From assembly GCA_017555545.1 (NCBI GenBank), contig JAFZGE010000017.1, forward strand, positions 1-44,294: DNA of 44,294 nt, written 5' to 3'. Source of the DNA: Alistipes sp. Its GTDB lineage: Bacteria; Bacteroidota; Bacteroidia; Bacteroidales; Rikenellaceae. Every line of letters begins with the position of its first letter. Position 1 is the stretch's first letter. Under the pieces are notes generated by a model. It saw nothing but the letters and a program-made list of their open reading frames with translations, ran no database searches and had not been told where the DNA came from. The translations under genes and the position numbers were made by a program. Of the stretch, positions 32,544 to 41,097 are shown piece after piece.

Positions 32544-34589
32544 CTACAACCAACCACCGCGATCGTTGTTCTCGCGGGCGATGATGAGATACTCCTTCTC
32601 TACAATCTTACCACTCATATCGGGGACATACTCATCCTTCGGACAACCAGCATAATAACGCAGTTTTATCTTGCCGATGCCTGGTTTTCGGCAGACGAAG
32701 TAGACCTCGTGCTCTCCAAAGCGATTAACCTTATCTATGCCGAGGCGCTTCTGAGTCTCTTTGTCTATCTCAAAGTCAAGAATCTTAATGCCGAGTTTGC
32801 CATCGCTGATGGTCTCGTTGATGTTGATATAGGTGGATGTATTGAGTGATGCAGCTACTCTCTTTAAGCCGTGCATGCCCGATACTGCGTAGAGCGCATC
32901 CACCATGCCGATGCCCATCTTACCACGATAGTCATCCAACACTATCTGCGACACCTTGCCCCTATAGGTATAGACCGTTTTAGAGCCGTAAAGGCGATGG
33001 TCAATATCACTTACCGACGAGCAGATTATATCGTAGAGGTCGTCGTTCGTGAGGCGTATGCCGTGGTCTACGGCCGAGGATAGTGCCAACGCTGCAACGC
33101 CCGAGACATATGGGCACGCCATAGATGTTCCTGTCATATAGGCATAGTCTGAGCCATAGGTGGTCTTTCCATTATTGTAAACATCGGGGGTCTCGCTTGG
33201 TACGGTGGAGAGTATCGCGCCATTAGGGTTTAACACGCCATCGACATACTCAAAGTCGCCACCTGGGGCTGCGATGTTGCAACCGTAGTGGTAGTTTGTA
33301 TATCCCGTAGGCAGACCATCGGGGGCATAGGCTGATACCGATATAAATTGGTTATAGGCACCTGGGTAGCATGTATAGTTAAGACCCTCGTTACCCGCAG
33401 CAAATATTGCCACACCGCCATCCATCACCTCATTGTCGCTACACTCAACAAAATACTTAATGGCCTCAATCAACGCCTTACCCGTATTCTTCTCATATCC
33501 CGAGTCGCTAATCCACGAAAGTGGCTGACCCCACGAGCATTGCAGTATCGCAGCGCCCATATCTGCGGCATACTCGATACCTGCAGCAATTCTGGTATTG
33601 TCTGCTCCAAGACTCTCCTGAAATATCTGCACAGACATTATGCGCACGCCGTCGCCATTGCCCGAGCCTCCTGCGATGCTCGAGATACCCTCGCCATTGT
33701 TGTTTACCGCAGCAATGATGCCCGCAACATGAGTTCCGTGACCCACATCACCAGTATAGTTGCCCTCGGAGTCATATCTGCGATTATTCCACGATATATT
33801 GCCATTAAGCTCAATGGTGTTTACGCCATAGATGTCATCAATATAGCCATTGCCATCATCATCGACACCCTCAACACCATTCAACTCTGCTGTATTAGTC
33901 CACATATTGGCTGCAAGGTCGGGATGAGTGTATTTAACACCCTCGTCAACAACCGCAACTACGACCTTTGGATTTCCCGTAGCATATTTCCACGCCTCAT
34001 ATGCGTTGATATCCGCCCCCGCATAGGCGGTGCTAAATATCTCGCTACTACCCTCGTTGTGCAATCCCCATTGCAGAGGGAGCATAGGGTCGTTGAAAGG
34101 CTCACTATCCGAGCGCGTTACTGGCAGGCTCTCCACAGGCACAACATTTACCTCGGGGCGTACAAATTCCATTGCATACTCCACGCGCTCCACCTCCTTC
34201 ATCGCAGCATAACGCTGGGCAACGCTCTCCACGGGAGTATCCTCCGCAAACTCAATGACAAACCAACGGTGCATACCTCGCTCACGCTTCTTGTCGGCAT
34301 TTATAGCCATATTAAAGACGGGGCGAACACTCTCCACGCCCAACTCCGCGGCCACTGCATCCATTGCAACAACACCCGCGCGCGTGGGCGATGAGGCGTT
34401 GTGCCACGCATTGGCAGTAGCATCATCGACATAGATAATCAACTCTCCGCTTAGCGCCCCATCGGCGTTTCCAATGATTTTATTTGCGGGTTTGGTCGTG
34501 GGCGTTGGCTCAAACTTGGGGTCTTTGACGCACGACACCACCAACGCGCCACACAACACGGCGAATACTATATTATGAAATGTTCTCAT
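32544..34589 (-). CDS. S8 family (subtilisin-like) serine peptidase, lipoprotein
   Basis: Lipobox VVSC, an N-terminal prodomain, catalytic VAVVDEG, GHGTHVAG and GTSMACP, and oxyanion FAAGN. Start moved to ATG 34589. Confidence 0.94.
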   Translation of the reverse strand: MRTFHNIVFAVLCGALVVSCVKDPKFEPTPTTKPANKIIGNADGALSGELIIYVDDATANAWHNASSPTRAGVVAMDAVAAELGVESVRPVFNMAINADKKRERGMHRWFVIEFAEDTPVESVAQRYAAMKEVERVEYAMEFVRPEVNVVPVESLPVTRSDSEPFNDPMLPLQWGLHNEGSSEIFSTAYAGADINAYEAWKYATGNPKVVVAVVDEGVKYTHPDLAANMWTNTAELNGVEGVDDDGNGYIDDIYGVNTIELNGNISWNNRRYDSEGNYTGDVGHGTHVAGIIAAVNNNGEGISSIAGGSGNGDGVRIMSVQIFQESLGADNTRIAAGIEYAADMGAAILQCSWGQPLSWISDSGYEKNTGKALIEAIKYFVECSDNEVMDGGVAIFAAGNEGLNYTCYPGAYNQFISVSAYAPDGLPTGYTNYHYGCNIAAPGGDFEYVDGVLNPNGAILSTVPSETPDVYNNGKTTYGSDYAYMTGTSMACPYVSGVAALALSSAVDHGIRLTNDDLYDIICSSVSDIDHRLYGSKTVYTYRGKVSQIVLDDYRGKMGIGMVDALYAVSGMHGLKRVAASLNTSTYININETISDGKLGIKILDFEIDKETQKRLGIDKVNRFGEHEVYFVCRKPGIGKIKLRYYAGCPKDEYVPDMSGKIVEKEYLIIARENNDRGGWL

Positions 34590-34602
34590 AGACACAGATT
34601 TT

Positions 34603-36378
34603 TTACAGTGCATTTAGACACATTGCCTCGGGCGCTGGCTCCGCAGTTGGAGAGGCATTATAACCACCTTCGTAGTAGGCGAGCGCCTGGTCGTATATCT
34701 CGGCAAGGCGTGCCACATCCTCCGTAGAGGTAAGCACATTGTCGCGCGTAAAGAGATACTCCTCGGGGGATGCATAGAAGTCTACATCGCCATCCTCATC
34801 CATAACCAAAGCGTAGAGGCGACCTTTATGGTTATACTTAACCCAGAAATAGAAGTGGTTATAGGAGTAAGACTCGTGATTTCGGAGCATATCAATAATC
34901 TGCTCATCGCTCTTACCCCATGTTTCATCCTCAAAGAGGAATGTAGCGTATATCATGCGAGGCTCCTGGCTAAGGCTAACCGCGACACCTACGGCGCAAT
35001 AGTCATATAATTCATAGGACAGGTCGTAGCAATCGGCATACTTCACGGGGTCGTAGCGGTATAACGCAGTGGCATTGAACGGACCACATATCTCGACGCC
35101 CTCAATCTTGCAATCGGGCTCACGCTCTGGCTCAGTCCTGAACGGAATAGTTGTCATCTCGGATGTAGCAACCTCACCGTGGCAACCAAGACATACAACA
35201 TAATAGTCGGTGTCGGGTATAAGAGTGTAGTCCTCATAATTCGCATTGCCAAATCTGACATCATCATTCTTTACACACTGGTCAGCAATGCGTTGCTTTA
35301 ATAACTCCTTATCCCAGTCATTATACTCCGCTACAGGCATCACAACAGAGCAATATCCCTCCATATCGCTTGATGGCGTAACACCATATACCACTCTACG
35401 ACTATTAACCTCGCCAATCTCCACATCGAATGTTATATCAGAATCTTCGTAGATCGATGTGGTGAAGTATGTTGTATGCGGATATGAGACTAGCTGCACT
35501 ACACCATCTAAAACATCCATAGCATATATCACCAAGCAGTATTCGGTGTTTGCCTTAAGCTGAATACGCTTATCCTCAACATCGCCAGTAAGAGTGTTTG
35601 CCCTTAATAAAGCCTCAAGACCCTCTAAATCATTATAATTTATATAGCGTATAAATTCAAAGTGCCACAGTTGTTCGTAGTGATCAAACTGCTCGTCGGG
35701 AGTATATTTATCAATATCGTAGAACTCGTATGTGTCGTAGCCAATCTTACGCTCATAGAACGTATAGTAGTAGATACCATCCCAACCTTGTGGTTTAACA
35801 TCGAGCAAAATATCCGAGCCCATAACAGGATCTAAGGTTACATTTGTCTCGAACGACACATCCTTATTGAGTGCCGTACCCGTAGTCACAGCCTCATAAT
35901 AGACAGGCGTTGTTGCTCTAAAGTCGATTCTGTTGCCATTGGAGTAAGGCTCGAAACCAAGCACCACAATGCAATGTTGCGCGCCAGGCTGCAACATATT
36001 GCGCTCAAGTTCTATTCTACCCTTGCCACCAACATTACACTGCGTAATGAACTCTATGATATCAAGGTCATTATCACATGCATATTCAAGATATGGTTTT
36101 ACGCCAATATTCGTTAATGTAATATTTGGATCAGAAAATAAGTACTCAACCACATCCTCAATGCTATCCGATATTTGACATACTTGCGCCACATATATCA
36201 TATCCTTATCCTTGGGCGTGATGGTCGCCTTGACAGTTCCCGTGGTCACCTCCGTCACATCGATTACGAAGTCATCGCCCCTCTTGTTGGGCTGCTCCAC
36301 TCCAGGCTTATCCGTATTACACGACGCTGCAACACTCGCTATAATCAATGCCACCAGACCAAACAATACTCTTCTCAT
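34603..36378 (-). CDS. Hypothetical acidic lipoprotein with repeated beta-sandwich-like modules
   Basis: Lipobox AASC and repeated pattern F.(I/V).(V/I)..V.......(I/V)TP......Y and L.(P/A).T.Y..(V/I). ATG 36378 is preferred because the -7 box is at 36407-36414. Confidence 0.75.
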   Translation of the reverse strand: MRRVLFGLVALIIASVAASCNTDKPGVEQPNKRGDDFVIDVTEVTTGTVKATITPKDKDMIYVAQVCQISDSIEDVVEYLFSDPNITLTNIGVKPYLEYACDNDLDIIEFITQCNVGGKGRIELERNMLQPGAQHCIVVLGFEPYSNGNRIDFRATTPVYYEAVTTGTALNKDVSFETNVTLDPVMGSDILLDVKPQGWDGIYYYTFYERKIGYDTYEFYDIDKYTPDEQFDHYEQLWHFEFIRYINYNDLEGLEALLRANTLTGDVEDKRIQLKANTEYCLVIYAMDVLDGVVQLVSYPHTTYFTTSIYEDSDITFDVEIGEVNSRRVVYGVTPSSDMEGYCSVVMPVAEYNDWDKELLKQRIADQCVKNDDVRFGNANYEDYTLIPDTDYYVVCLGCHGEVATSEMTTIPFRTEPEREPDCKIEGVEICGPFNATALYRYDPVKYADCYDLSYELYDYCAVGVAVSLSQEPRMIYATFLFEDETWGKSDEQIIDMLRNHESYSYNHFYFWVKYNHKGRLYALVMDEDGDVDFYASPEEYLFTRDNVLTSTEDVARLAEIYDQALAYYEGGYNASPTAEPAPEAMCLNAL

Positions 36379-36406
36379 AACTATATATTTATTATATTTC
36401 ACTTCA

Positions 36407-36517: not shown

Positions 36518-37594
36518 CTACTTCGTTAGGCGGTGGTAGTGGCAGAGGAGAAGATTCTCGTCGTCATCGTAGAGGTGCATGCCGTTGCCCTCGCAGTATT
36601 GCCACATCTTACAGTCGGCGCACTTGCCCTTCTTCGCCCATGAGCGGTTGCGGAACTTCTCGAAGCGGTTTTGCCACACATCCCAGAAGTTATCCTTATA
36701 TATATTACCTTGCGTGAAGTTGGCACGCACGCTGGTACAGCCCGAGATATCGCCATTGACACGGATAGAGGCGGTACCCACACCTGCGTAGCACTCGAAT
36801 GGGTTGGTGCGCACACGCAACTCATAGCCTGCGAGGAAGCCCTCACAGCCGTATGCTGCCTTCACGCGACCCTCCTTGCGGCACTTCTCGATGAACTGCA
36901 TAAGGTAGGTGAACTCCTCGTTGTTTAGCTGCAGCGTGGGGTCTGTTGCGGCACGACCAACAGGGAAGATGGTGAACAATCGCCAGCGACGTACGCCGAG
37001 TGAGTAGAGGAACTCTTTGAACTCCTCAAGGCGTGGTAGAAGGGCTGGAGTCACGCATGTCACAACATCTGATGCAAGTTCCTTATCTGCCGAAATCATG
37101 CGCACAGCCTCCACGGCGCGTGCAAAGCTATCCTTATTCTGGCGGATATGGTAGTGGTGCTCCTCGAAGCCATCAAGCGAGACGGTGATAGAGTGCAAGC
37201 CCGCACGGATGAGCGAGTCGAGCCTCTGACGCGAGAGCGCCATGCCGTTAGTCACCATGCCCCAAGGGTAGCCACGGCGATATAGGTTGATGCCTATCTC
37301 CTCGAGATCCTTGCGCACGAGCACCTCGCCACCCGAGAGGATAATTAAAACCTTATGTGGGTCGACATTGGGCGTAATCTCGTTGTCCAACACGCGGAAG
37401 AAATCCTTTGCGGGCATGTCGGTGAGCGTGGTGTCCACCTTGCAGTCACTACCGCAGTGGCGGCACTGCAGGTTACAGCGAAGGGTACACTCCCAGAACA
37501 GAGTATTTAAGATGTGCTCGTCACGGCGTATCTGGCGTAGTTTTTTGAATAGCTTCAACGCCATCCACTGGCGTAGTCCAAGTCGTTTTCCCAT
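36518..37594 (-). CDS. Radical SAM/SPASM enzyme A, rSAM/lipoprotein-system type (TIGR04133-like)
   Basis: FWECTLRCNLQCRHCGS, SGGE, VTNG, SLDG, and SPASM CYAG...GDISGC...GNI...CADCKMWQYC. It sits next to TIGR04134-like lipoproteins. Confidence 0.88.
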   Translation of the reverse strand: MGKRLGLRQWMALKLFKKLRQIRRDEHILNTLFWECTLRCNLQCRHCGSDCKVDTTLTDMPAKDFFRVLDNEITPNVDPHKVLIILSGGEVLVRKDLEEIGINLYRRGYPWGMVTNGMALSRQRLDSLIRAGLHSITVSLDGFEEHHYHIRQNKDSFARAVEAVRMISADKELASDVVTCVTPALLPRLEEFKEFLYSLGVRRWRLFTIFPVGRAATDPTLQLNNEEFTYLMQFIEKCRKEGRVKAAYGCEGFLAGYELRVRTNPFECYAGVGTASIRVNGDISGCTSVRANFTQGNIYKDNFWDVWQNRFEKFRNRSWAKKGKCADCKMWQYCEGNGMHLYDDDENLLLCHYHRLTK

Positions 37595-37600
37595 AGTATC

Positions 37601-37786
37601 TTATTCGTTTTGTATTTCGTTGTTAACCTCCTCTGCGAGTGCCTCCTCAGCTGGCGCTTTCTCGCTATACTCCTCATGTAGGGGTGCATAGGCAGGTGCG
37701 GGGTATATCTGCTGGTCGCCCTCGGGCTCGCAACTTACGAATGTATAGCCTAACGCTACTAATCCAAAGAGTATCAATCGTTTCAT
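37601..37786 (-). CDS. 61-aa lipopeptide, candidate rSAM substrate
   Basis: MKRLILFGLVALGYTFVSC signal/lipobox, IYPAPAYAPL motif and an acidic tail. It fills the gap between the two rSAM genes (19- and 6-nt spacers). Confidence 0.8.
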   Translation of the reverse strand: MKRLILFGLVALGYTFVSCEPEGDQQIYPAPAYAPLHEEYSEKAPAEEALAEEVNNEIQNE

Positions 37787-37805: not shown

Positions 37806-38834
37806 TTATAAATCTAATACGGGGTCGGCAATGTCGAATGTGCCGTATAGCTGCTCCGAGGCTGCACGACAGCCTCCACGACAGCGCTGCCAGAGGTCGC
37901 ACTGGGCGCATCGCTCGGGCGTGGTGTCATAGATGCCATCATCGGTTGTGCGCCTGAGGATATCCTCGAGGTGCTCCTTGTGGATGTTTCCCAATACGCG
38001 TGGCGAGTGGTTGCAGAAGCGCACATCGCCGCGGTAGTTGATGGTCAAGGGGCGCGACTTGAGATCCGTTGTGCAATGCGTGAAGGTGATGTTGGGGTAA
38101 TCTGAGGGCGTGAGCACGCACATAGGTGTGCAGACGCCATTGTGGGCACGCATGCCCAGCTCGCCAAGTTTAGCGTTAGCACGGCGGAAGGCATCGCGCA
38201 ACTCGGCATGCGAGAGCGTTAGCTCTGCGGCGTACTTACGACCCAAACCACCGATATTAAAGCGGTTAAGCATTATTCTTTTGACCCCCATCGCGGCATA
38301 CATCTCCAGTGTAGACTCTATATCCGCCACATTCAGGCGGCTAAGGATAAAGACGGGCGTCAGCCAAGCGGGGTCGATGTCGGTTATACGCTTGGCACTC
38401 GCCATGGCGCGCTCCCATGAGCCCGCAAGCTGCGTTATGTGGTCGTGCACCTCCGCGCGGTCGGAGAGCAGCGGTATCTGCACTACGCCAACGCCAAGGT
38501 CTCTAATAATGTTGATGTCTTCTGCCTTGAGAAGTGTGCCGTTAGTCAGCAGGTTGACATTCGAGCCACCAATGCGCGCCTTGAGTATAAGGTCGTGGAT
38601 GCGGGGCATAAGCATCGGCTCGCCACCCGAGAACGATATGCTCGAGATATTGGCCTCGCGCTGCAAGCGTTTTAGCGTGCGGCGTGCCATGCGGAAGTCG
38701 GGCGCAGCAACGGGGCAAGGCTCTGCTCCACCCTTAAAGTGGTTGTAGCAGAACCTGCACGCCTGGTTACAGGCATCCGTGAGCTCGAAGACCATAAAGC
38801 CGAGCTCCATCTTTTTGCGTCGCGAGAAAAACAT
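37806..38834 (-). CDS. Radical SAM/SPASM enzyme B
   Basis: FELTDACNQACRFCYN, FSGGEP, LTNG, and SPASM C...GDVRFC...GNI...CAQCDLWQRCRGGC. Confidence 0.9.
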   Translation of the reverse strand: MFFSRRKKMELGFMVFELTDACNQACRFCYNHFKGGAEPCPVAAPDFRMARRTLKRLQREANISSISFSGGEPMLMPRIHDLILKARIGGSNVNLLTNGTLLKAEDINIIRDLGVGVVQIPLLSDRAEVHDHITQLAGSWERAMASAKRITDIDPAWLTPVFILSRLNVADIESTLEMYAAMGVKRIMLNRFNIGGLGRKYAAELTLSHAELRDAFRRANAKLGELGMRAHNGVCTPMCVLTPSDYPNITFTHCTTDLKSRPLTINYRGDVRFCNHSPRVLGNIHKEHLEDILRRTTDDGIYDTTPERCAQCDLWQRCRGGCRAASEQLYGTFDIADPVLDL

Positions 38835-38837
38835 AGG

Positions 38838-39350
38838 TTAATCTACAATAGAGACAAAGACGGAGTGTGGTGTCGAGTGCTCCTCTCCCTCATAATTCAC
38901 ATACTCCACGCACAACTTCGCCCTACCACGATAGTCGCCAGCATTAATTGTGAAAGATAGTAGGTTATCGCCATGCTCCACATTATACATCTCACTGCAA
39001 AGCACCCGATCCTCATCGTTGTCATCGCTTATCAACGATATTGTCACCTCCTCGCCAAACTCACACACATATTTAAGAACTACAATATCTCCATTGCGAA
39101 GCTCGCTATTGGCTACATTATTATTCCATCTGTGATAGTTAGATGGCGGGGGTGCAGGGTCGTAGCATGATGTCATAAATCCACCACCCTCGCAGGCTGT
39201 CGATGCCAATGCCGTAAGGCCAATCAGCATACCGCCAAGGCGATATTTTAAGCTTGTTGCGCGCTTACTTCTGCCACCGCTAAGGATAAGCCACAACGAC
39301 ACAGCTACGAATGCCATGCTAAGCGCTACTATAAGTATTGTTCGTTTCAT
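38838..39350 (-). CDS. Membrane-anchored hypothetical protein with TSCYDPAPPP motif, candidate substrate of rSAM B
   Basis: Two N-terminal hydrophobic segments, the second ending in lipobox-like STAC, then a Cys-Tyr-Pro-rich motif and a beta-rich domain. It ends 3 nt before rSAM B. Confidence 0.75.
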   Translation of the reverse strand: MKRTILIVALSMAFVAVSLWLILSGGRSKRATSLKYRLGGMLIGLTALASTACEGGGFMTSCYDPAPPPSNYHRWNNNVANSELRNGDIVVLKYVCEFGEEVTISLISDDNDEDRVLCSEMYNVEHGDNLLSFTINAGDYRGRAKLCVEYVNYEGEEHSTPHSVFVSIVD

Positions 39351-39389: not shown

Positions 39390-39749
39390 TTACTCCTCGC
39401 TGTTTACGCGCGTGAGTTCTATATCGCCGAGTTCGATTTGTGTGCCCGGTTCGCCAAAGGTGAATGACCTTTTTTCGAAGTCGCCACCATTAGCCTCGCC
39501 ATCGGTATCGGTCAATGCCAGCCAGGGCCTAGTGCCATAGATGTGGAAGCGGCCATTCTCATCCGTAGTGGTTCTGTTCTCGCCACAACGCGCCTCGATG
39601 CCCTCGATGGGCGTGCCACTCTCATCGACAACACGACCCGAAGCACCGAACTCCGCATTAAACTCAGTGTACTCAACGCCATAGCATGCGACGCATGTTA
39701 GCGTCATGCCAAATAGCGCAAATAGTCGTACTAATAGTTTGCCAGTCAT
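39390..39749 (-). CDS. rSAM-associated putative lipoprotein, paralog 4 (TIGR04134-like)
   Basis: Signal ending CVAC-YG, plus VVDESGTPIEGI and DTDGEANGGDF blocks. Confidence 0.85.
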   Translation of the reverse strand: MTGKLLVRLFALFGMTLTCVACYGVEYTEFNAEFGASGRVVDESGTPIEGIEARCGENRTTTDENGRFHIYGTRPWLALTDTDGEANGGDFEKRSFTFGEPGTQIELGDIELTRVNSEE

Positions 39750-39813: not shown

Positions 39814-40269
39814 CTACTCCTCGGGAGTATCAGTGTTCTCCTCGCTCTTCTCCTTGAGCTTCATGGTCACAGTGCCCATATCGGCGGTGTAGGCGCCTTC
39901 GTACCAGTTACCATCGCCCTCCTCGGTCTGTATGAGGTTCTCAATCTTCACGGTGAGCGTCTCGAACTCACCGCCATTGGCCTCGCCATCGACATCGATA
40001 AACTGCATCTTTTGGTTTTGAGCACCAGGCCAGAAGTATCCGCCATAGGCATCGATATTACCCTCGTAGTCCGAGAAGCCAGTATTATACTCGAAGCGTC
40101 CACCATCCTCGGTGCGCACTTCGATACCCTGGATGGGGTTGCCCGCCTCATCCACAACACGCGCCTTGAGCGAGAAGCTAACAGTGGGACAACCATACTC
40201 CACCATACCAAAATGGTCGCAGCTTGCAAAGCCAAGCATAGCCATTAGTAGATATATAAGTCGTTTCAT
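39814..40269 (-). CDS. rSAM-associated putative lipoprotein, paralog 3 (TIGR04134-like)
   Basis: LGFASC lipobox, MVEYGCP, VVDEAGNPIQGI, DVDGEANGGEF and GDGNWYEG. Confidence 0.88.
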   Translation of the reverse strand: MKRLIYLLMAMLGFASCDHFGMVEYGCPTVSFSLKARVVDEAGNPIQGIEVRTEDGGRFEYNTGFSDYEGNIDAYGGYFWPGAQNQKMQFIDVDGEANGGEFETLTVKIENLIQTEEGDGNWYEGAYTADMGTVTMKLKEKSEENTDTPEE

Positions 40270-40272
40270 AGT

Positions 40273-40695
40273 TTATAGGTTTTTAAGTTTCATAGTTACC
40301 TTGCCGACGTTGACAACAGCGCTACCAACATATCCCCACTCGTCGGGCTTGTTGTTGATGCCTGTGAGCTGATCGCGGATATCAACAGTTACACTCTCAT
40401 ACTCGCCACCATTGTAGTCGCCATCAACATCCTCGAATACCACCTTGTGCAACTTATTGGGGTTGATGTGCACAAAGCCATAGTCTATTATGCCCTGATA
40501 GTCACTATATCCCGAGCGGCCATAGAAGGCGCTGCCCTCGGGGTATGAGTAGATGCCTTGTATTGGGTTACCCTCCTCATCGACAACCTCTGCGCAGAAG
40601 CTGAGCACATAGTATGGCTCACGCTTAGGCTCCTTCTCGCACGATGATAGCGCAAAGCTGCACACCACCATCGCCAACAGTATTAATCGTTTCAT
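40273..40695 (-). CDS. rSAM-associated putative lipoprotein, paralog 2
   Basis: LSSC lipobox, EPYY, VVDEEGNPIQGI and DVDGDYNGGEY. Confidence 0.85.
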   Translation of the reverse strand: MKRLILLAMVVCSFALSSCEKEPKREPYYVLSFCAEVVDEEGNPIQGIYSYPEGSAFYGRSGYSDYQGIIDYGFVHINPNKLHKVVFEDVDGDYNGGEYESVTVDIRDQLTGINNKPDEWGYVGSAVVNVGKVTMKLKNL

Positions 40696-40716: not shown

Positions 40717-41097
40717 TTACTTCTTCTCCAGTTTTACATCGACCACAAGGGTGTCTCCGTCTCTATGCTTCTCAGCCCGGCTCATATTGAGGTGCTTCTC
40801 TTCGAACTCACCGCCATTCTCCTCGCCATCGACATCCTTGAACTTCATCAACTGGATATCATCCTCCCACGACACTATGCAGTCGCCATTCTCATCGGTG
40901 TAACCAGCAGGCTCGACACTACCATTATATCCCGCCGAAACCTCGATGCCCTTGATAGCATTACCATCCTCATCCACTACATGAGCCTTGAGCTTCGTAG
41001 GTTTAGGGAGCAGTGGTGCATACATAGGCATGGGCTCATTAATAGAGGAGCAACTGAAACCGAGCGCCGCCAAAAACAGGTAAACTATCTTTTTCAT
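40717..41097 (-). CDS. rSAM-associated putative lipoprotein, paralog 1
   Basis: LGFSC lipobox, PMPMYAPL, VVDEDGNAIKGI and DVDGEENGGEF. ATG 41097 is preferred. Confidence 0.85.
   Translation of the reverse strand: MKKIVYLFLAALGFSCSSINEPMPMYAPLLPKPTKLKAHVVDEDGNAIKGIEVSAGYNGSVEPAGYTDENGDCIVSWEDDIQLMKFKDVDGEENGGEFEEKHLNMSRAEKHRDGDTLVVDVKLEKK

What the first reader, a model, noticed from the sequence alone, without database searches (positions are those of the whole stretch)
37601..37786. Minimal 61-aa lipopeptide shares a PxPxYAPL motif with paralog 1 but lacks the folded domain
Seen: PAPAYAPL in this peptide and PMPMYAPL in the 40717-41097 lipoprotein, at similar distances from the lipobox Cys. 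The rest of the peptide is a low-complexity acidic tail. Inference: the motif is the recognition or modification unit, and this gene is a RiPP-like lipopeptide precursor coupled to rSAM A (6-nt gap). Gene callers could easily miss it.
Basis: partly seen in the sequence, partly recalled or inferred. Interest (0 to 1): 0.75.

Follow-up and report, generated by a model that had tools for sequence, protein, structure and literature searches.

The report
Mini-lipoprotein substrate of radical-SAM enzyme
This is a real, conserved 61-amino-acid gene of an Alistipes-like gut bacterium that encodes a predicted lipid-anchored peptide, a stripped-down member of a known but uncharacterised enzyme/lipoprotein cassette; it is predicted to dock into the neighbouring radical-SAM enzyme, which likely rewrites its backbone at one tyrosine before export.

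Summary
The ORF is real. It has a lipobox Cys19 and Tyr33, lies 6 nt before rSAM A, is under purifying selection (dN/dS about 0.3), and short forms occur in 19 of 60 related Alistipes/Rikenellaceae loci. rSAM A is TIGR04133 and the neighbours are TIGR04134-type, so the cassette is a known, uncharacterised family. This scan already reported it, with the Tyr-Gly/splicease idea, on other DNA.

PxPxYAPL is present but is not the conserved unit. The family motif is x-Y-[G/A]-x-P-x-x-x-[F/Y], and most members read YG.

New here:
- a domain-less short class that the family model does not name;
- a Tyr-Ala variant, the only form in two whole cassettes;
- a model (0.87 vs best control 0.02) in which the signal peptide binds the enzyme's N-terminal extension and residues 27-41 contact the enzyme core.

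rSAM A groups with the PlpX-type spliceases (99/98, small tree, 25-28% identity). The best reading is a lipid-anchored, spliceotide-like substrate edited at Tyr33. The chemistry is untested, the site is YA rather than the canonical YG, and near-identical strains lack the gene.

The parts
37601..37786 (-). 61-aa domain-less lipoprotein: signal peptide 1-18, lipobox Cys19, linker, motif A32-Y33-A34-P35 with Tyr40 at +7, acidic tail
37730..37786 (-). Signal peptide plus Cys19 (L-G-Y type), predicted to double as leader that binds the N-terminal extension of rSAM A
   Evidence: C19 invariant and L12/G13 at least 90% conserved in 40 short forms; contacts in model; lipidation inferred
37667..37702 (-). 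Motif region, residues 29-40, with invariant Tyr33 as the likely modification site
   Evidence: residues 27-41 contact the enzyme core
36518..37594 (-). rSAM A, TIGR04133 radical SAM/SPASM protein (358 aa), CxxxCxHCGS type; likely maturase of the peptide
   Evidence: (572.6 bits, cut-off 425), tree
37806..38834 (-). rSAM B, unrelated radical SAM/SPASM protein (22% to rSAM A); accessory module paired with the 170-aa protein
38838..39350 (-). 170-aa membrane/lipoprotein-like protein with a C-Y-D motif; co-occurs with rSAM B in 32 of 32 loci
   Evidence: weak NF058595 hit (E 0.018)
39390..39749 (-). TIGR04134-like lipoprotein, CYG type
   Evidence: 29.6 bits, under cut-off 39.8
39814..40269 (-). 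TIGR04134 lipoprotein, EYGCP type
   Evidence: 87.4 bits, over cut-off
40273..40695 (-). TIGR04134-like lipoprotein lacking the YG motif (YYVL class)
   Evidence: 32.1 bits
40717..41097 (-). TIGR04134-like lipoprotein 'paralog 1', MYAPL, lacking the +7 aromatic
   Evidence: 36.8 bits

Best explanation
The ORF encodes a conserved, domain-less member of the TIGR04133/TIGR04134 cassette: a predicted lipoprotein that likely binds rSAM A in the cytoplasm through its signal peptide and Tyr motif, is likely edited at Tyr33 by splicease-like tyramine excision, and would then be lipidated and displayed on the cell envelope. [quoted passage not shown] The short class would be the minimal form: anchor, editable site and acidic tail.
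For: Gene: short forms in 19 of 60 close loci, 11 directly upstream of rSAM A with gaps of -1 to 9 nt; pooled dN/dS 0.31 over 28 non-independent pairs; 21 homologue clusters; 61 short clusters at 50% identity, 57 parsed with Y[G/A]; 6 clear cases with repeated motif copies. Only Cys19 and Tyr33 are invariant in 40 short forms. The +7 aromatic is kept without the folded domain in 13 of 16. A signal+motif profile finds rSAM A neighbours across the order: 13 of 21 hits, including the best 11. Complex model 0.87 vs best control 0.02; the mark was reached by 116 of 157 solved and 2 of 215 mismatched pairs; runs agree in at least 85% of contacts; partner pLDDT at least 65. rSAM A joins TIGR04103-, GDL- and HCGS-type enzymes at 99/98, apart from PqqE, MftC, NirJ, TIGR04053 and TIGR04347. 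Spliceases act on XYG (PMC11414181, PMC9811515), and the Plp splice tag GPIRPLYGLPI (PMC10533398 Table 1) matches the short-form consensus PMYGxP. YA as a live site: whole cassettes L072 and L075 hold only YA lipoproteins beside an intact rSAM A, and orthologues flip between YA and YG (L035, P0014).
Against: No biochemistry exists for TIGR04133 in the searched library. The site is AYA, and every splice site in the papers I read is XYG. rSAM A is only 25-28% identical to the splicease-like proteins and scores 93.4 bits on TIGR04103 (cut-off 725), below AhbD/NirJ-type models. Shared invariant residues barely separate spliceases (45-54 of 93) from MftC (48), and only L38, G48 and E258 are diagnostic. 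The tree has 23 rows and long branches, and no experimentally proven splicease sequence was in it. The gene is absent from three genomes with 97-98% identical rSAM A (L032, L033, L057). The complex job lacked a control with an unrelated lipoprotein signal peptide, used my own alignments plus ligands (outside calibration), and did not report the Tyr33-SAM distance. There is no evidence of translation or lipidation.
Confidence: 0.42

Rival explanations
1. Substrate of rSAM A, but with different chemistry at the Tyr (for example a C-C or C-O crosslink to a nearby residue, decarboxylation or epimerisation) that rigidifies or tags the lipoprotein tether.
For: Substrate evidence as above. The enzyme is distant from the splicease-like group (25-28%), and YA sites depart from the XYG rule. 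SPASM enzymes commonly form aromatic crosslinks (established knowledge).
Against: The nearest functionally annotated neighbours in the tree are the PlpX-type enzymes. The motif context P-x-Y-G-x-P matches a known splice tag. Position +2 is variable, unlike a fixed crosslink partner.
Confidence: 0.25
2. The short YA peptide binds rSAM A but is not converted. It acts as a decoy, activator (like the PlpY/leader helix) or unmodified variant, while YG paralogues are the true substrates.
For: YA in 9 of 57 short vs 1 of 42 long hits (Fisher p 0.04, but the profile was built from YA-rich rows). A separate activating helix is known for spliceases (PMC11414181). The model predicts binding only.
Against: YA also occurs in full-length members (7 of 54 of the CYG class). 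Two cassettes hold only YA members. Most short forms carry YG. A lipobox implies export away from the enzyme.
Confidence: 0.18
3. A truncated paralogue remnant, a by-product of duplication and deletion in a fast-shuffling cassette, with no function of its own.
For: Absent in near-identical strains. 8 of 61 short hits keep a piece of the first beta strand and may be true truncations or contig-edge fragments. Different short forms resemble different long subtypes, which suggests repeated origin. No short form turned up among 21 hits in 200 other genomes of the order.
Against: dN/dS about 0.3 including the tail (0.40), with synonymous sites near saturation. The 60-61 aa length and C-terminal end are kept at 43-62% identity (L056, L037). 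There are dozens of distinct short clusters and repeated motifs.
Confidence: 0.1

Closest known systems
TIGR04133 (rSAM_w_lipo) / TIGR04134 (lipo_with_rSAM), NCBIfam hypothetical equivalogs
   Same: rSAM A passes the TIGR04133 cut-off. One neighbour passes TIGR04134 and three score just under. The peptide shares the family's signal peptide and Tyr motif and sits in the usual slot directly before the enzyme.
   Different: The peptide lacks the roughly 110-aa folded domain and has no TIGR04134 hit (23 of 40 short forms hit weakly, best E 8.9e-9). It has YA instead of YG. The cassette has four long paralogues and a second rSAM module.
Spliceotides / tyramine spliceases (PlpXY, PcpXY, RhaX, RcsX, RasX)
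   Same: rSAM/SPASM enzyme of the neighbouring lineage; small precursor with an N-terminal helix and a P-x-Y-G-x-P-like site; no RRE gene, as in two-component systems (PMC11414181).
   Different: The leader is a lipoprotein signal peptide, so the product would stay lipid-anchored. The site here is AYA. Identity is 25-28%, far under the TIGR04103 cut-off. No reaction has been shown.
GDL-motif / DUF1843 peptide-associated rSAM (TIGR03913)
   Same: Same HCGS enzyme clade; clustered short peptides carrying xYG and xYA variants side by side.
   Different: DUF1843 peptides have the motif at the N-terminus and no signal peptide. Their chemistry was not found in the papers searched (listing only).

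Membership tests
TIGR04133 (for rSAM A) | HMM score above curated cut-off 425 | tested here: met
   572.6 bits
TIGR04134 (for the 61-aa peptide) | HMM score above curated cut-off 39.8 | tested here: not met
   no hit at E up to 0.1 or 0.05
TIGR04134 (for the 61-aa peptide) | Lipoprotein signal peptide with lipobox Cys | tested here: met
   sequence; Cys19 invariant; by pattern only, SignalP not available
TIGR04134 (for the 61-aa peptide) | Encoded next to a TIGR04133 enzyme | tested here: met
   6-nt gap
TIGR04134 (for the 61-aa peptide) | Folded Ig-like domain after the motif | tested here: not met
   21-aa acidic tail only; no Pfam hit, whereas paralogues hit Big_1 or CarboxypepD_reg weakly
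Spliceotide | XYG target motif | tested here: not met
   this copy reads AYA; YG in orthologues L035, L037, P0014 and in 48 of 57 short forms
Spliceotide | Maturase of the PlpX splicease lineage | tested here: inconclusive
   joint clade 99/98, but 93.4 bits vs TIGR04103 cut-off 725 and few diagnostic residues; the equation of TIGR04103 with PlpX's IPR026482 is recalled, though the Nostoc locus shows Nif11 LYG precursor + enzyme + small ORF
Spliceotide | Tyramine excision (-135 Da) giving a ketoamide | not testable with these tools
   needs co-expression and MS
RiPP precursor (general) | Leader bound by the maturase, core modified | tested here: inconclusive
   binding predicted; modification not shown
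RiPP precursor (general) | Dedicated protease/exporter conserved in the cluster | tested here: not met
   the window's S8 peptidase has homologues in 0 of 60 related loci (49 with at least 3 kb downstream); signal peptidase II would serve instead (inference)

The most novel reading that the evidence does not exclude
Gut Alistipes use the lipoprotein signal peptide as a RiPP leader. A splicease-lineage enzyme cuts tyramine out of minimal 45-70 aa lipopeptides, at Tyr-Ala as well as Tyr-Gly sites, and the cell displays a swappable coat of lipid-anchored ketoamide protease inhibitors: a membrane-tethered class of spliceotides.
Probability: 0.3. Interest if true: 0.82.

Novelty: new variant of a known kind. 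Interest (0 to 1): 0.52.

Why it matters
TIGR04133/TIGR04134 is widespread in gut Bacteroidales (29 of 36 sampled genomes of this genus carry the enzyme) and has no described chemistry in the library searched. A 61-aa natural substrate without the folded domain is the simplest reagent for finding that chemistry, and natural YA/YG orthologue pairs test the XYG rule directly. If tyramine splicing is confirmed, beta-amino-acid backbone editing would extend to cell-envelope lipoproteins of commensals, with a possible role against host or competitor proteases: spliced peptides inhibit elastase, chymotrypsin and cathepsin B, unspliced ones do not (PMC11626197, section 13). It would also give a single-component splicease with a wider site rule for protein labelling.

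Tried and rejected
- PxPxYAPL as the conserved unit: rejected.
- Coupling to rSAM B: rejected; short forms occur without it, and rSAM B tracks the 170-aa protein.
- S8 peptidase or the 599-aa lipoprotein as cassette members: rejected; 0 and 3 of 60 loci.
- The tblastn hit of the peptide on contig C143 is signal peptide only, in a 740-aa protein.
- Expression: contigs of three RNA-labelled gut runs and one probable DNA run cover parts of the cassette. One 217-base contig spans the whole ORF, and one join skips the ORF as in strains lacking it. These are contigs, with no silent-stretch control laid, so they are not counted as evidence of transcription.
- Promoter/terminator scan: at chance level (5 vs 6.8, 2 vs 4.0).
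- Solved structures: no close relative of rSAM A (best E 1.1e-8).
- Invariant-residue count: barely separates spliceases from outgroups.
- Profile search of 200 genomes of the order: no short forms outside the own genome; all 21 hits lie in frames of 146 aa or more. This means not found with this query, not absence.
- Four giant repeat proteins among the 110 hits were dropped as spurious.
- Paper searches for TIGR04133 and for radical SAM + lipoprotein + tyramine + Bacteroid gave 0; one search gave nothing relevant.
- Two key papers known from recall (the 2022 Chem survey of spliceotide types and the 2011 in-silico rSAM family paper) are not held, so prior classification of TIGR04133 as a splicease type cannot be excluded.

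Full report
Observation. The 61-aa ORF at 37601-37786 (-) is as described: signal peptide, Cys19, PAPAYAPL, acidic tail, and 6 nt to the start of rSAM A. The paralogue at 40717-41097 has PMPMYAPL, with the Tyr at Cys+10 against Cys+14. The match is far beyond genome background, but both genes belong to one family, so the family is the proper null.

Context. The window is contig C51 of an 86% complete genome, whose nearest named relatives are Alistipes/Rikenellaceae MAGs. rSAM A is TIGR04133 (572.6 bits, cut-off 425). The four upstream lipoproteins hit TIGR04134 (87.4, 36.8, 32.1 and 29.6 bits, cut-off 39.8), and the peptide has no hit. rSAM B is 22% identical to rSAM A and travels with the 170-aa protein: 32 of 32 loci with that protein have rSAM B. 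The enzyme is found in 37 of 61 genomes searched, 29 of 36 in the genus. Earlier notes of this scan describe the same family on other DNA with the Tyr-Gly and tyramine-excision reading. I had noted the splicease idea before that look-up and treat those notes as leads, not support.

Is it a gene? Of 80 loci fetched, 60 have rSAM A at 70% identity or more. Of these, 19 carry 20 short lipoprotein ORFs of 45-67 aa, 11 of them directly upstream of rSAM A, and 6 of the 19 show no rSAM B in the fetched stretch. Pooled over 28 non-independent pairs among 8 sequences, pS is 0.64, pN 0.34 and dN/dS 0.31 (signal 0.27, motif region 0.30, tail 0.40). Gene callers do call it: 21 clusters at 77-97% identity, unnamed or 'hypothetical'. 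A profile of 20 short forms found 110 representatives at 50% clustering: 61 of 100 aa or less, 45 longer family-like proteins, and 4 giant repeat proteins that I dropped. Eight of the 61 may be truncations. Against indispensability, three genomes with 97-98% identical rSAM A lack the gene, and rSAM B runs straight into rSAM A there. In 200 other genomes of the order, all 21 hits were in long frames, so the short class looks concentrated in this genus as far as this query sees.

The motif. Among 187 distinct family proteins from the 60 loci, 157 have Y[G/A] shortly after the Cys: 144 YG and 13 YA. Pro is at +3 in 112, and PxPxY occurs in 10. The 30 without the motif are mostly a YYVL class. An aromatic residue at +7 is kept in 80 of 82, 54 of 54 and 13 of 16 members of the two long classes and the short class; the peptide has Tyr40 there and paralog 1 lacks it. 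In the 21 close homologues P(-4), P(-2), Y and E(+6) are invariant, while Leu(+3) is present in 9. In 40 short forms only Cys19 and Tyr33 are invariant, L12/G13 nearly so, and the consensus is PMYGxP. An L-G-[F/Y]-type signal is found in 56 of 61 short forms, against 18 of 150 pattern-called lipoproteins of the genome under a slightly stricter pattern. The signal+motif profile alone picks rSAM A neighbours in other families: 13 of 21 hits, including the best 11. Six short proteins clearly repeat the motif; the pattern counted 7. YA is a standing variant. Orthologues flip between YA and YG, and two cassettes bounded by unrelated genes on both sides (L072, L075) contain only YA lipoproteins with an intact rSAM A, although substrates elsewhere in those genomes were not excluded. 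YA looks enriched in short forms (9 of 57 vs 1 of 42, p 0.04), but the profile was biased towards it.

The enzyme's lineage. In a 23-row IQ-TREE tree, seven TIGR04133 proteins join a Nostoc TIGR04103 protein, two GDL/DUF1843-associated enzymes, a Tropicibacter and an Agathobacter protein at 99/98, apart from PqqE, MftC, NirJ, TIGR04053, TIGR04347 and rSAM B. All 12 share CxxxCxHCGS. The Nostoc locus has the layout of a type I spliceotide cluster with an LYGLP precursor. Caveats: identity is 25-28%, branches are long, no proven splicease was included, and invariant-residue sharing is 45-54 of 93 for that group against 48 for MftC. PlpX is IPR026482 and excises tyramine at Xaa-Tyr-Gly (PMC11002830, passages); that this equals TIGR04103 is recalled. 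Two-component spliceases use a leader helix as activator, and AlphaFold places XYG in the active site (PMC11414181, parts 1-2 of 4). The Plp tag GPIRPLYGLPI is in PMC10533398 Table 1 (passages). Spliced peptides inhibit serine/cysteine proteases and unspliced ones do not (PMC11626197: passages, abstract and section 13). PMC9811515 was seen as passages and PMC5080379 as abstract only (charge and position after the Cys govern surface export in Bacteroidetes). No supplements were read; those of the splicease papers may list Bacteroidota systems.

Binding model. rSAM A with peptide 1-45, SAM and a 4Fe-4S cluster scored 0.87 against a best control of 0.02. The mark was reached by 116 of 157 solved complexes and 2 of 215 mismatched pairs, counts that hold only roughly for this job; runs agree in at least 85% of contacts and partner pLDDT is at least 65. 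Peptide residues 1-17 touch enzyme residues 8-33, an N-terminal extension holding the invariant R8, L13 and L29. Residues 27-41 touch segments 79-87, 108-114, 134-137, 172-176, 203-207 and 249-288, which by my reading are the barrel core. Tyr40 packs on residues 80, 81, 108 and 110, which offers a reason for the conserved +7 aromatic. The model supports binding and does not show it. No close complex is solved, but distant rSAM-peptide complexes exist (recalled), and no lipoprotein-signal control was run.

Mechanism. Supported by sequence and conservation: the gene, its linkage to rSAM A, the motif. Predicted: binding of the pre-lipoprotein via signal helix and motif. Inferred: since rSAM A has no evident export signal and needs Fe-S clusters, modification happens before export, with the signal peptide serving as leader; the chemistry is most likely tyramine excision at Tyr33, giving a ketoamide from Ala32; lipidation, cleavage and surface display follow. 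Speculative: protease inhibition at the surface. Overall 0.42. Rivals are other chemistry (0.25), a non-converted decoy or activator (0.18), and a remnant (0.10).

Verdict. A real, ordinary-looking small gene that is the minimal variant of a known, uncharacterised system already flagged by this scan. Its added value is the short class, the YA variant and a testable signal-peptide-as-leader model. New variant of a known kind; interest 0.52.

Noticed in passing
L125:742-849 (+), Agathobacter rectalis plasmid NZ_CP143948.1: Unannotated 35-aa ORF with a GGAGG ribosome site and a PVMYG motif near its end, 81 nt before an HCGS-type radical SAM gene (WP_015515522.1) in the same clade, followed by an MFS transporter. 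Candidate spliceotide-like cluster in a gut Firmicute.
   Followed up: partly
G000 contig C57:15610-17054 (-); L090-L110: Second TIGR04133 paralogue (64%) paired with a single disordered, domain-less 90-230 aa lipoprotein bearing one or more MYGVP motifs; conserved across Alistipes.
   Followed up: partly
window 37806-39350 (-): rSAM B plus the 170-aa protein form a separate mobile module with a C-Y-D motif; 32 of 32 co-occurrence, no family model above cut-off.
   Followed up: partly
window 40273-40695 (-): A conserved paralogue class lacks YG and has YYVL instead (27 of 31 without the motif); its role is unexplained.
   Followed up: no
L115:1537-2237, L118:1647-2360: DUF1843 peptides next to GDL-type rSAM genes carry N-terminal xYG and xYA variants side by side.
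   Followed up: no
L072:2873-4255, L075:2601-3980 and several other loci: A roughly 460-aa exported, possibly beta-barrel protein is inserted inside the cassette in the YA-rich clade; roughly 205-aa genes sit in others.
   Followed up: no
window 32544-36402 (-): S8 subtilase lipoprotein and 599-aa lipoprotein downstream; both have many paralogues in the genome and are not conserved next to the cassette.
   Followed up: partly
L117:2098-3574: The TIGR04133/TIGR04134 pair also occurs in Treponema saccharophilum, outside Bacteroidota, next to an invertase gene.
   Followed up: no
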